Shown here piece after piece: positions 1 through 3,000 of a stretch of 4,719 nucleotides of DNA (its first letter is position 1; the number at the start of each line of letters is the position of its first letter). The stretch lies in IMG/VR virus record IMGVR_UViG_2671180378_000013; one strand, written 5' to 3'. This stretch comes from a virus (taxonomy: Duplodnaviria > Heunggongvirae > Uroviricota > Caudoviricetes). The position numbers were made by a program.

Positions 1-3000
1 GACCCGACGCTGCCGGAGGTGTCCGGAGGTCATGGCAGGGCAGACGATATCATCGGACTGTGACCCGCCCCGGGGGGGGGATCATCCGGCGAAAAAAATG
101 ATCGCCCCGGACACCGCCCCCCCTCTCACGCAGAGAAAAAATTCCCGTTTCAGGGCAGTTAACATGTTAACTGGCTGTCCGGGCATTTTTGCGGTTTTTA
201 TCTTTATTATTCAGTTTGTTGTGCGGAAAAAATGTTAACTGGCTTTTTCAGCAAATGTTAACCAGGCAGCAGTTAACATTTGCGGCATGAGACGCCGGGA
301 AAAATGGGCTGAACCATACCCGGCTGAGTGCGTTCTGGACCCGGGAGGAGGCTGTGCTGACAACGCAAAAACGAAAATTTGCGCTGGCGCTCATGTCCGG
401 GAAAAACAAAACAGCGTCAGCCATTGCCGCTGGTTATTCGGCGAAGACCGCCAGGGTTAAAGGCTCGCAGCTGGCAAAAGATCCGGAGGTGCTTGCGTTT
501 ATAGCCCGTAAACAATGCGAGACGGTGGAGGTGGATGAGGTTCCTGTTTACCGGCAGAAAAAATCAGAGCAGGAGGATAAACCCCGTCGCCGTGAGGCGG
601 CTGCAATACCACAGCCGGACGAAAACAATCCGGAGATGCCACCGTCCGCGGTGATGTCTCCTGGTATTGAATATATGGAGGATGGTCTTCCCGATCCGGT
701 GAAAGCGATGGGGCGTCTTCTGGTGGAGAACATTAATACCGACCCCAGGCTGGCGCTGGATGCGGCTTATAAGCTGGCGCAGTTCACGCACCATAAAAAA
801 GGGGATGCCGGTAAAAAATCGGCAAAAGGTGACGCGGCGAAAAAAGCGGCTAACCGTTTTGCGGTGCCACCACCACCCCGCCTGGTGGTGAATAATGATA
901 ATGAGGGCAACGGATGATACCTGTGTGGAGCACGGCCTGCCCGGACTGGGCAGAGCGCCTGAAAAAGGGGCTGTCGATTATTCCGGCTCCGATTTATCCG
1001 GACCAGGCTGCACATGCACTGGCGATTTTTAAACAACTGCGAATTGTGGATGCACCGGGTAGCCCGACATTCGGGGAGTCCTGTGCACCGTGGGTGTTTG
1101 ACCTGGTGGCGGCCCTGTTTGGCTCCTACGATGCGCAGACCGGTGTTCGCCATATCAAGGAAGTGTTTATCCTTATCCCCAAGAAAAACAGTAAGTCCAC
1201 GCTGGCTGCGGGGATCATGATGACGGCGCTGTTACTGAACTGGCGGCAGGCGGCGGGCTACACCATTCTGGCCCCGACCGTGGAGGTGGCGGCTAACGCC
1301 TTCAACCCTGCCAGGGATATGGTACGACGGGACGATGATCTGGATGACCTCTGTCAGGTGCAGACACATATCCGGACCATCACCCATCGGGTGACGGACA
1401 CCACCCTGAAGGTGGTGGCAGCCGATCCGAATACGGTGTCCGGTATCAAGTCCGTGGGGACACTGATTGATGAACTGTGGCTGTTTGGCAAGCAGTACAA
1501 GGCGGAAGACATGCTACGTGAAGCCATCGGCGGGCTTGCCTCCCGTCCGGAAGGGTTTGTGGTGTATACGACCACCCAGTCGAATGAACCGCCCGCCGGG
1601 GTGTTCAGACAGAAACTGCAGTATGCCCGGGATGTCCGTGACGGCAAAATTCATGATCCGCACTTTCTGCCGGTGATTTTTGAGCATCCTCCTGAAATGG
1701 TGGAAAGCGGGGCTCACCTGCTGATGGAAAACCTCGCCATGGTTAACCCGAATCTCGGTTATTCGGTGGATGAGGCCTTTCTGTACCGGGAGTACCGTAA
1801 AGCCCGGGAGGCTGGTGAGGAAGCATTTCGTGGCTTCATGTCAAAACATGCCAATGTGGAAATTGGTCTTGCCCTGCGTTCTGACCGCTGGGCGGGCGCG
1901 GATTTCTGGGAGCAGCAGGGCAGGCGCGTCAGCCTGGACGATATCCTGCAGCGCGCTGATGTGGTGACGGTGGGGATTGACGGCGGGGGCCTGGATGATC
2001 TGCTGGGAATGTACGTGACTGGCCGTGACAGGGAAACCCGCGAATGGCTGGGCTGGGGCCATGCCTGGGTGCATGAAACCGCGGTGGTCAGACGGAAGAG
2101 TGAGGCATCCCGGTTTCAGGATTTTGTGGCCTGTGGAGACATGACGATTGTCCGTCGGGTCGGGGATGACACGGCGGAAGTGGCGGAGTATGTGCGTCGT
2201 ATTCATGAGGCTGAGTTACTGGAGCATATCGGTATTGACCCGTCAGGTGTGGGGCAGATTCTGGATTCACTGGCGGAAGCCGGGATCCCCGATGAGAGTG
2301 TGGTGGGGATAAGCCAGGGCTGGAAGCTGGGCGGGGCCATCAAAACCACCGAGCGCAAACTGGCTGAAGGGGTGCTGATTCACGGTGATCAGCCCCTGAT
2401 GGCCTGGTGTGTCGGTAATGCCCGGGTGGAGCCTAAAGGTAACGCCATTCTTATCACCAAACAGGCCAGCGGACGGGGAAAAATTGACCCGCTGATGGCG
2501 CTCTTCAATGCGGTGTCCCTGATGTCCCTGAATCCGGAACCGAAAAAGAAAGCGTATGAGGTTTTTTTCATATAACCCTGCTCACCCTGTAACCATCATG
2601 AACCGCTGCGGCGGTTTTTTTATTTTCAGGAGGCTGATGTGACTCTTAAACGGGCCTGTTCCCTGCTGACGGTGAAATCCTTCAGTGAGGATGAACGGGT
2701 GATCACCGGGATTGCGTCAACGCCTTCTCCGGATCGGGATGGTGACATCCTGGAGCCGGAGGGGGCGGAGTTTGGCAGTACGATCCCGTTTCTCTGGCAG
2801 CATGACCATTCCCGCCCTGTAGGCCAGTGTACGGTGCGTCGGGTCAGGGAAGGGCTGGAAATCACGGCAATGCTGGTGAAGCCGGAGCCGGGGATGCCCT
2901 CCCAGATGGCAGCCCGGCTGGATGAGGCCTGGGCTGCCATTAAGACCGGGCTGGTCAGGGGGCTTTCTGTGGGCTTCCGGCCCCATGAATACACTTATCT

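What the first reader, a model, noticed from the sequence alone, without database searches (positions are those of the whole stretch)
914..2700. No portal gene between terL and the protease/capsid gene
In HK97-like head modules the usual order is terS, terL, portal, prohead protease, major capsid. Here terL ends at 2575 and the protease-capsid ORF starts at 2639, with only a 63-bp spacer holding a hairpin and an RBS. The portal must therefore lie elsewhere in the element (upstream of the window, or downstream of the capsid gene) or be supplied in trans by a helper phage. The second case would suggest a satellite-like element (for example a capsid-encoding phage-inducible island) rather than a complete phage. 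This cannot be decided from the window alone.
Basis: inference. Interest (0 to 1): 0.5.

Follow-up and report, generated by a model that had tools for sequence, protein, structure and literature searches.

The report
Stx phage head module, portal downstream
The window is the DNA-packaging and head gene block of a well-known long-tailed Shiga-toxin phage of E. coli, whose portal gene sits just after the capsid gene instead of before it, so this is an ordinary, already sequenced gene-order variant and not a sign of a satellite element.

Summary
terL (914-2575) is followed after a 63-nt spacer by a prohead-protease/major-capsid fusion gene (2639-4576), and nothing portal-like is encoded in the window on either strand.

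The satellite suggestion is not supported. Window 1-4676 is about 99.6% identical to long-tailed Stx1a/Stx2a/Stx2c-converting phages and prophages, including the classic strain H19 Stx1a prophage. In all of them the order is HNH - terS - terL - protease/MCP - 73-aa ORF - portal (454 aa, Pfam Phage_portal E=2.9e-80) - repeat protein - head-tail adaptor - complete tail module. Lysis genes and stx lie upstream.

- **E. coli:** the terS-to-portal block is contiguous in 1247 of 1260 matching E. coli records.
- **Other taxa:** terL - capsid gene - portal was detected in 25 of 29 loci from other bacteria, out to Alphaproteobacteria (a 26th lacks only a terL hit). Tape-measure and major-tail genes were tested, and found, in six distant loci.
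- **Isolated phages:** BP-4795, FSL SP-016 and PAJU2 were deposited with this order years ago.
- **Window end:** the last 43 bases are a Nextera adapter, so the contig end is technical, not biological.

Verdict: already known, low interest. Side notes: a conserved terminator-like hairpin in the spacer, and a conserved internal start (Met193) that probably yields capsid protein without the protease.

The parts
1..63 (+). 3' end of the HNH endonuclease gene that precedes terS (packaging accessory)
   Evidence: The window aligns from base 1 with L001/L002, where a 121-aa HNH CDS ends at the equivalent position. Pfam HNH E=7.2e-07 on the L001 protein. TGA at 61-63.
158..278 (.). Cluster of five TGTTAAC motifs in both orientations in the HNH-terS intergenic region; candidate terminase-recognition (cos-proximal) sites (inferred)
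   Evidence: 5 matches, all in this interval, against 0.23 expected; 0 of 200 shuffles reach 5. Inverted and direct repeat families. Function not tested.
354..917 (+). terS, terminase small subunit (187 aa)
   Evidence: Pfam Terminase_2 E=1.5e-08; phrog_641 E=2.6e-68. Annotated terS in L001, L002, L033.
914..2575 (+). terL, terminase large subunit (553 aa), overlapping terS by 4 nt
   Evidence: Pfam TerL_ATPase + TerL_nuclease; phrog_7622/phrog_9. 100% identical to the L002 protein.
2576..2638 (+). 63-nt terL-capsid spacer with no coding capacity for a portal
   Evidence: Direct reading. Spacers of 57-63 nt in 14 of the relatives measured.
2600..2617 (+). GC-rich hairpin followed by a T-run (intrinsic-terminator-like), conserved across genera
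   Evidence: 7 pairs, loop 4, T-run. Present at the same place in 12 relatives, from Enterobacter to Marinobacter, with an invariant stem core and a variable loop. 98.9% of cells paired against 20-56% for slid registers; only one compensatory pair, in the window's own lineage.
2628..2633 (+). Shine-Dalgarno AGGAGG for the capsid gene, 5 nt before GTG 2639
   Evidence: Sequence. GGAG is invariant in the alignment of 13 spacers.
2639..4576 (+). Prohead protease (S78) - coiled-coil scaffold/delta region - HK97-type major capsid protein, fused in one 645-aa ORF
   Evidence: Pfam Peptidase_S78 aa 48-151 and Phage_capsid aa 386-635; phrog_617 over the full length. 100% identical to the L001/L002 proteins. 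The PAJU2 homologue is annotated 'prohead protease fused capsid protein'.
3215..4576 (+). Probable nested gene: internal ATG (Met193) preceded by AAGGAAAAG, giving scaffold-MCP without the protease (inferred)
   Evidence: A start codon at the aligned column plus an SD-like AAAGGA/GGAGGG upstream in 16 of 18 aligned sequences (window included; ATG in 15, GTG in L019), and an ATG one codon upstream in L023. In Snodgrassella the capsid gene is a separate 439-aa ORF whose best tblastn segment starts at window aa 193.
4621..4676 (+). First 56 nt of the 73-aa ORF (phrog_829, unknown function) that separates the capsid gene from the portal gene in all close relatives
   Evidence: Same position and sequence as L001 24619-24840 and L002 24621-24842.
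4677..4719 (.). Not biological: Nextera transposase adapter plus N703 index read-through at the contig end
   Evidence: All database matches stop at 4676. 31 of 33 bases match CTGTCTCTTATACACATCTCCGAGCCCACGAGA, followed by AGGCAGA; the sequence diverges from L002 exactly at 4677.

Best explanation
The window is the packaging and head-gene block of a long-tailed lambdoid Shiga-toxin-converting phage or prophage of E. coli, of the type of the strain H19 Stx1a prophage, BP-4795, phage 2851 and Stx2a_WGPS2. In this module type the portal gene is not between terL and the protease. It lies immediately downstream of a fused protease-scaffold-capsid gene. The order is HNH, terS, terL, [hairpin], protease/MCP, 73-aa ORF, portal, repeat protein (start overlapping the portal stop by ATGA), head-tail adaptor, head closure, gp10-like, tail terminator, major tail, chaperones, tape measure, tail tip.

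Shown here: the identities of the genes, their order, and conservation of that order across Proteobacteria in complete phages with tails.

Inferred from established knowledge of lambdoid and HK97-type phages: all these genes are read as one late transcript from the Q-antiterminated late promoter upstream of stx and the lysis genes. RNA polymerase modified by Q would read through the terL-capsid hairpin. The capsid gene is probably translated both from GTG 2639 (protease-scaffold-MCP, the minor product that carries the protease into the procapsid) and from ATG 3215 (scaffold-MCP, the major product). Shells would assemble on a dodecamer of the phage's own portal. The protease then removes itself and the scaffold region, and terminase with the HNH protein cuts and packages cos DNA. 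Gene position in the operon has no mechanistic consequence for portal supply: the portal is made in cis.
For: Window 1-4676 is 99.1-99.7% identical to the top-listed Stx phage records and E. coli genomes. In all, 94 phage records and 1255 of 5426 complete E. coli genomes match at 80% identity or more. The annotated context in NC_049941, NZ_AP038987 and strain H19 shows Q, stx, lysis genes, HNH, terS, terL, capsid, small ORF, portal, adaptor and a full tail module. The ORF after the small ORF is a bona fide portal (Pfam PF04860 E=2.9e-80, 270 bits against a cut-off of 39; phrog_12/2271). The 7-kb terS-to-repeat-protein block is contiguous (at least 80% coverage) in 1247 of 1260 matching E. coli records. 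terL - capsid gene - portal was detected in 25 of 29 loci from other species, from Enterobacter, Kluyvera, Citrobacter, Pantoea and Erwinia to Hydrocarboniphaga, Marinobacter, Snodgrassella, Chelativorans and Caulobacteraceae. L025 has the capsid gene and portal in that order but gave no terL hit, and three loci are cut or partial: L022, L024, L029. Tape-measure proteins (five loci) and major-tail proteins (three loci) were found downstream in the six distant loci tested. Independently annotated isolated phages show the same order: BP-4795 ORF54-58, Salmonella FSL SP-016, Pseudomonas PAJU2 ORF002-006. The window's terL and capsid proteins are 100% identical to those of the O103:H2 Stx1a prophage. 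Long-tailed Stx1/Stx2c phages are observed as virions (PMC12029490; PMC2669165).
Against: The window itself stops 56 nt into the small ORF, so the portal of this particular contig is not seen directly and its presence is inferred from near-identical relatives. Many O157 prophages with this module are individually defective (PMC2669165), and 13 of 1260 E. coli records hold only part of the block, so a truncated remnant cannot be formally excluded for this copy. The nested internal start, read-through of the hairpin and the assembly pathway are inferred, not demonstrated.
Confidence: 0.95

Rival explanations
1. The window comes from a satellite-like element (for example a capsid-forming PICI) that encodes terminase and capsid but takes its portal and/or tail from a helper phage.
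For: Only the bare fact that no portal lies between terL and the capsid gene, and that the flanks are not in the window. E. coli does harbour cf-PICIs with HK97-type packaging modules (10.1101/2025.02.11.637232).
Against: cf-PICIs by definition encode their own portal and lack lysis and complete tail modules (10.1101/2025.02.11.637232; PMC10085698). All near-identical relatives have lysis genes upstream and portal plus complete tail downstream. The window still contains the start of the ORF that precedes the portal. The contig ends in a sequencing adapter, not at a biological boundary. The six distant relatives tested also carry tail genes.
Confidence: 0.01
2. This particular copy is a decayed prophage remnant in which the portal or later genes have been deleted or disrupted. 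Any particles would then depend on complementation by the other lambdoid prophages in the same STEC genome.
For: STEC genomes carry a median of 2 and up to 8 copies of this module. Asadulghani et al. describe many Sakai prophages as defective in portal, head or tail functions yet packaged through complementation (PMC2669165). 13 of 1260 records lack a contiguous block, for example a terS/terL-only remnant.
Against: All three genes in the window are intact. terL and the capsid protein are 100% identical, and terS 100% over the aligned 187 aa, to those of an Stx1a prophage with a full module. About 99% of matching records keep the block contiguous. Nothing in the window indicates a deletion junction; the end is an adapter.
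Confidence: 0.04

Closest known systems
Long-tailed Stx-converting lambdoid phages: Enterobacteria phage BP-4795 (Marienburgvirus), phage 2851, Stx2a_WGPS2 (Sawaravirus), strain H19 Stx1a prophage
   Same: Nucleotide identity over window 1-4676 is 99.1% to Stx2a_WGPS2 and 99.6% to the strain H19 prophage. Capsid-protein identity is 94.9% to BP-4795 and 95.3% to phage 2851. Gene content and order are identical (HNH-terS-terL-protease/MCP-73 aa-portal-repeat protein-adaptor-tail), with the same 63-nt spacer in L001 and L002.
   Different: Nothing of substance; the window is a fragment of such a phage. The last 43 nt are adapter.
Pseudomonas phage PAJU2 (Detrevirus) and Salmonella phage FSL SP-016
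   Same: Isolated siphoviruses with the same order: terminase, fused protease-capsid gene, small ORF(s), portal, hypothetical protein, adaptor. The PAJU2 protein was proposed to be a protease-MCP fusion that cleaves itself (Uchiyama 2009, as cited in PMC8306868).
   Different: 48% (PAJU2) and 77% (SP-016) protein identity for the capsid fusion. Different hosts, no stx. PAJU2 has two small ORFs before the portal.
Bacteriophage HK97 head module (terS, terL, portal gp3, protease gp4, MCP gp5)
   Same: The same protein families: HNH + terS + TerL, Phage_portal PF04860, S78 prohead protease, HK97-fold MCP, gp6-like connector, gp10-like protein. Presumably the same scaffold-less, delta-domain-dependent assembly with proteolytic maturation (established knowledge).
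   Different: The portal is moved from between terL and the protease to after the MCP. Protease and MCP are fused in one ORF. There is an extra 73-aa ORF and an extra repeat protein next to the portal. No PDB sequence relative at E<=0.001.
Capsid-forming PICIs (for example EcCIEDL933)
   Same: HK97-type packaging genes including HNH, terS, terL, protease and MCP; found in E. coli (10.1101/2025.02.11.637232).
   Different: [quoted passage not shown] The relatives of this window are 49-58 kb phages (the single-phage records fetched or listed) with lysis and tail genes.

Membership tests
Long-tailed lambdoid Stx-converting phage (BP-4795 / 2851 / Stx2a_WGPS2 type) | High nucleotide identity to the late-region head module of sequenced members | tested here: met
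   99.1-99.6% over window 1-4676 to the nine best Stx phage records (94 records match at 90% or more); 99.7% to an O103:H2 Stx1a prophage.
Long-tailed lambdoid Stx-converting phage (BP-4795 / 2851 / Stx2a_WGPS2 type) | Module order HNH-terS-terL-protease/MCP-small ORF-portal | tested here: met
   All parts up to the start of the small ORF are in the window. The portal itself is seen only in relatives.
Long-tailed lambdoid Stx-converting phage (BP-4795 / 2851 / Stx2a_WGPS2 type) | stx genes, Q antiterminator, lysis cassette and siphovirus tail module on the same element | not testable with these tools
   These lie outside the 4.7-kb contig. Present in relatives. The same module also occurs in non-Stx lambdoid prophages (for example the PPompW and PPyecE records), so stx carriage of this copy is unknown.
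HK97-type head module | S78 prohead protease plus HK97-fold major capsid protein | tested here: met
   Pfam PF04586 E=1e-07 and PF05065 E=7.5e-15 in the 645-aa ORF.
HK97-type head module | Canonical order terL-portal-protease-MCP | tested here: not met
   terL is followed directly by protease/MCP, and the portal comes after the MCP. This is a gene-order variant of the kind; the protein families are unchanged.
Capsid-forming PICI (cf-PICI) satellite | Absence of lysis genes and of a complete tail module; size 10-18 kb with integrase and replication module | tested here: not met
   Relatives at about 99% identity have holin, lysozyme and spanin genes upstream and a tail module through J and fibres downstream, in 49-58 kb phages. 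Not testable on the contig itself.
Capsid-forming PICI (cf-PICI) satellite | Own portal, adaptor and connector in the packaging module | tested here: inconclusive
   Relatives do have these genes, but so do phages, so the feature does not discriminate. It does show that 'no portal' was never a cf-PICI signature (10.1101/2025.02.11.637232; PMC10085698).

The most novel reading that the evidence does not exclude
This contig could derive from a portal-less, tail-less derivative of the Stx-phage head module that depends on co-resident lambdoid prophages for its portal, that is, a new satellite-like element built from a phage packaging block. The evidence does not strictly exclude this because the contig ends, at a sequencing adapter, 56 nt into the ORF that precedes the portal.
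Probability: 0.01. Interest if true: 0.55.

Novelty: already known. Interest (0 to 1): 0.07.

Why it matters
It matters little beyond correct annotation.

- **The module is ordinary.** It is one of the most common head modules in STEC prophages, present in 1255 of 5426 complete E. coli genomes and often in several copies. Its layout has been in GenBank since BP-4795 and PAJU2.
- **Gene order is not a reliable completeness test.** A rule of 'terL, portal, protease, MCP' would wrongly flag this widespread family, which reaches Alphaproteobacteria, as incomplete or satellite-like.
- **The portal annotation is misleading.** PGAP's label of 'frameshifted portal' for the portal plus the downstream repeat-protein gene appears to be an artefact, because the two ORFs are separate with a conserved ATGA overlap in most relatives.

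Tried and rejected
1. **Hidden portal in the window.** tblastn with seven divergent portals at E<=10 gave only noise. The recurrent best hit (27 bits, 30% over 50 aa) is antisense inside terS, and it recurs only because the queries are homologous to each other. Rejected.

2. **PDB sequence search with the capsid fusion.** No hit at E<=0.001, so no solved close relative.

3. **Literature searches for an explicit discussion of this gene order.** Searches found no paper that treats it as a topic. [quoted passage not shown] The primary BP-4795, phage 2851 and PAJU2 papers are not in the searchable library.

4. **Covariation support for the spacer hairpin.** Only one compensatory pair, and 37 of 500 shuffles reach the observed score. 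Conservation is real, but the covariation evidence is weak. I keep it as 'conserved terminator-like hairpin, function inferred'.

5. **Programmed frameshift joining portal and repeat protein.** Considered because PGAP calls the portal 'frameshifted' and phrog_2271 spans both ORFs. The junction is a plain stop/start overlap (AAATGA, with ATG inside it), conserved across genera and without a slippery run, so two translationally coupled genes is the simpler reading. Not pursued further.

Full report
**1. What is in the window**

ORF listing and the sequence show three co-directional genes.
- terS, 354-917: 187 aa, Pfam Terminase_2, phrog_641 E=2.6e-68.
- terL, 914-2575: 553 aa, Pfam TerL_ATPase and TerL_nuclease, phrog_9 and phrog_7622.
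- A 645-aa ORF, 2639-4576: it combines a Caudovirus prohead serine protease domain (PF04586, aa 48-151) with an HK97-family capsid domain (PF05065, aa 386-635). It matches phrog_617 ('major head protein') over its full length, E=3.8e-259.

The terL stop and the GTG start of the capsid gene are separated by exactly 63 nt. The spacer contains a terminator-like hairpin (2600-2617, followed by a T-run) and AGGAGG (2628-2633).

tblastn with seven portal proteins from relatives found nothing portal-like in the window on either strand (best 27 bits).

**2. Where the window comes from**

Window 1-4676 is 99.1-99.7% identical to the top-listed Stx1a-, Stx2a- and Stx2c-converting phage records and E. 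coli genomes. In all, 94 phage records and 1255 of 5426 complete E. coli genomes match at 80% identity or more, with a median of 2 and up to 8 copies per genome.

The last 43 bases (4677-4719) match nothing biological. They match the Nextera adapter CTGTCTCTTATACACATCTCCGAGCCCACGAGA at 31 of 33 bases, followed by the N703 index, and the window departs from the prophage sequence exactly at 4677. The window is thus a whole short-read contig whose 3' end is technical. That end says nothing about the biology of the element.

**3. Where the portal is**

I examined three relatives:
- the RefSeq phage Stx2a_WGPS2 (L001);
- an O103:H2 Stx1a prophage (L002), whose terL and capsid proteins are 100% identical to the window's;
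- the classic strain H19 Stx1a prophage (L035).

All three show the same layout: Q - stx - lysis genes - HNH - terS - terL - protease/MCP - 73-aa ORF - portal - second ORF - head-tail adaptor - head closure - gp10-like - tail terminator - major tail - chaperones - tape measure - tail tip and fibres.

The 454-aa ORF that begins 211 nt after the capsid stop is an unambiguous portal: Pfam Phage_portal E=2.9e-80, 270 bits against a cut-off of 39. The first 56 nt of the intervening 73-aa ORF are still present at window 4621-4676.

**4. How general the order is**

- **E. coli.** A 7-kb query spanning terS through the ORF after the portal is contiguous (at least 80% coverage) in 1247 of the 1260 E. 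coli records that match at all.
- **Other species.** A scan of one genome per bacterial species with the capsid fusion returned 29 loci. tblastn and ORF mapping detected terL - capsid gene - portal in 25 of them. L025 has the capsid gene and the portal in that order but gave no terL hit. Three loci are cut or partial: L022 (a 2.1-kb contig that still shows the capsid gene followed by the portal), L024 and L029. The taxa include Enterobacter, Kluyvera, Citrobacter, Phytobacter, Pantoea, Erwinia, Rouxiella, Hydrocarboniphaga, Marinobacter, Snodgrassella, Chelativorans and a Caulobacteraceae MAG.
- **Tail genes in distant relatives.** Tape-measure proteins (five loci) and major-tail proteins (three loci) lie downstream in the six distant loci I tested.
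- **Isolated phages.** Deposited annotations of isolated phages show the same order: BP-4795 ORF54-58, Salmonella FSL SP-016 and Pseudomonas PAJU2, whose ORF003 is annotated 'prohead protease fused capsid protein'.
- **Published contig.** A contig table in PMC8156552 lists the same order: terS, terL, capsid, 168-nt ORF, portal.

This is an old, stable module layout of complete siphovirus-type phages.

**5. The satellite idea**

By their discoverers' criteria, cf-PICIs are 10-18 kb and carry integrase, replication and regulation modules. [quoted passage not shown]

So a missing portal is not a cf-PICI signature. The relatives of this window also fail the defining 'no lysis, no tail' test. A decayed remnant cannot be excluded for this single copy. 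Many O157 prophages are defective (PMC2669165), and about 1% of matching records are truncated. Nothing in the window suggests it, however.

**6. Mechanism**

Shown: gene identities and gene order.

Inferred from established lambdoid and HK97 biology:
- The block is part of the Q-dependent late operon.
- The portal is made in cis from the same transcript, so its position after the capsid gene has no consequence for assembly.
- The protease probably enters the procapsid as the N-terminal part of a minority of capsid subunits. It then removes itself and the coiled-coil scaffold region.
- Terminase with the HNH protein then packages cos DNA.

Long-tailed Stx1/Stx2c phages, some with elongated heads, are observed as particles (PMC12029490; PMC2669165).

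**7. Side observations**

(a) **Possible nested start.** An internal ATG at 3215 (Met193) is preceded by AAGGAAAAG. A start codon at that column with an SD-like element upstream is present in 16 of 18 aligned sequences, window included (ATG in 15, GTG in L019), and L023 has an ATG one codon upstream. In Snodgrassella the capsid gene is a separate ORF whose best tblastn segment starts at window residue 193. This argues for nested expression of capsid protein with and without the protease.

(b) **Spacer hairpin.** The hairpin is conserved in 12 relatives, out to Marinobacter, with an invariant stem core and a variable loop. Covariation support is weak: one compensatory pair, and 37 of 500 shuffles reach the observed score.

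(c) **The 'frameshifted portal'.** The portal stop overlaps the start of the next ORF by ATGA in most relatives. That ORF encodes a protein with tandem repeats of about 54 aa, and its length varies from 194 to 556 aa. The two ORFs are fused only in L016. PGAP's 'frameshifted portal', the 'portal x2' annotation and the 859-position phrog_2271 therefore look like annotation artefacts. L002 does have an extra frameshift inside the repeats.

(d) **TGTTAAC motifs.** Five motifs cluster at 158-278 between HNH and terS, against 0.23 expected. They are plausibly terminase recognition sites.

**8. Verdict**

The 'portal downstream of the capsid gene' alternative is correct, and the satellite reading is rejected. 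The feature is an already sequenced and annotated gene-order variant of the HK97-type head module, very common in STEC. Novelty: already known. Interest: low.

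Noticed in passing
window 4677-4719: The last 43 bases are a Nextera transposase adapter (31 of 33 match) plus the N703 index. The window is a whole short-read contig with adapter read-through, and the real sequence ends at 4676.
   Followed up: yes
window 3197-3217 (ATG 3215 = Met193 of the 645-aa ORF): Conserved internal start codon with an SD-like AAGGA upstream inside the protease-capsid fusion, kept in 16 of 18 aligned sequences (window included). Snodgrassella has a separate capsid ORF aligning from this residue. 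This suggests nested expression of capsid protein with and without the protease domain.
   Followed up: partly
window 2600-2625: The terminator-like hairpin plus T-run between terL and the capsid gene is conserved in position and stem sequence in 12 relatives from Enterobacter to Marinobacter, with variable loops. There is only one compensatory pair. Its function (attenuation without Q, or an mRNA end or stability element) is unknown.
   Followed up: partly
window 158-278: Five TGTTAAC motifs in both orientations (0.23 expected), confined to the HNH-terS intergenic region. Candidate terS-binding or cos-proximal sites.
   Followed up: partly
L001 24786-27370; L002 24788-27371; L035 13789-16367: The portal (454 aa) and the next ORF are annotated as 'portal x2' or as one 'frameshifted' portal pseudogene. 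The second ORF has no portal domain by Pfam. The two ORFs overlap by a conserved ATGA in most relatives and are fused only in L016, so this is probably an annotation artefact propagated through PGAP and phrog_2271.
   Followed up: partly
L001 26147-27370 and homologues (L009 13493-15163, L033 9511-10896): The ORF after the portal encodes tandem repeats of about 54 aa (IPVPADGKSITPDDVRPMLEQMVKEAVSH...) with variable copy number (194-556 aa across relatives) and a weak CBM_5_12-like C-terminus. Function unknown; possibly a head- or neck-associated decoration or fibre protein.
   Followed up: no
L002 26149-27371: In the O103:H2 prophage the repeat-protein gene is split (322 + 102 aa) by a frameshift inside the tandem repeats. 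This is either a real mutation or an assembly error in repeats.
   Followed up: no
L016 8256-10000 and 12184-15915: In the 'Candidatus Pantoea communis' locus there is a 1.7-kb insertion between terL and the capsid gene, and the portal is fused in frame to the repeat protein (1243 aa). It is the only such case among the loci examined.
   Followed up: no
window 2639-4576 versus the literature: The capsid protein carries the same RefSeq accession in the strain H19 Stx1a prophage and in the O103:H2 prophage whose protein is 100% identical to the window's. Stx1 phage H19J and Stx2c phages are reported to have elongated heads with long tails (PMC12029490; PMC2669165), so this fused-protease HK97-type module may build prolate heads. 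No solved structure has detectable sequence similarity.
   Followed up: no
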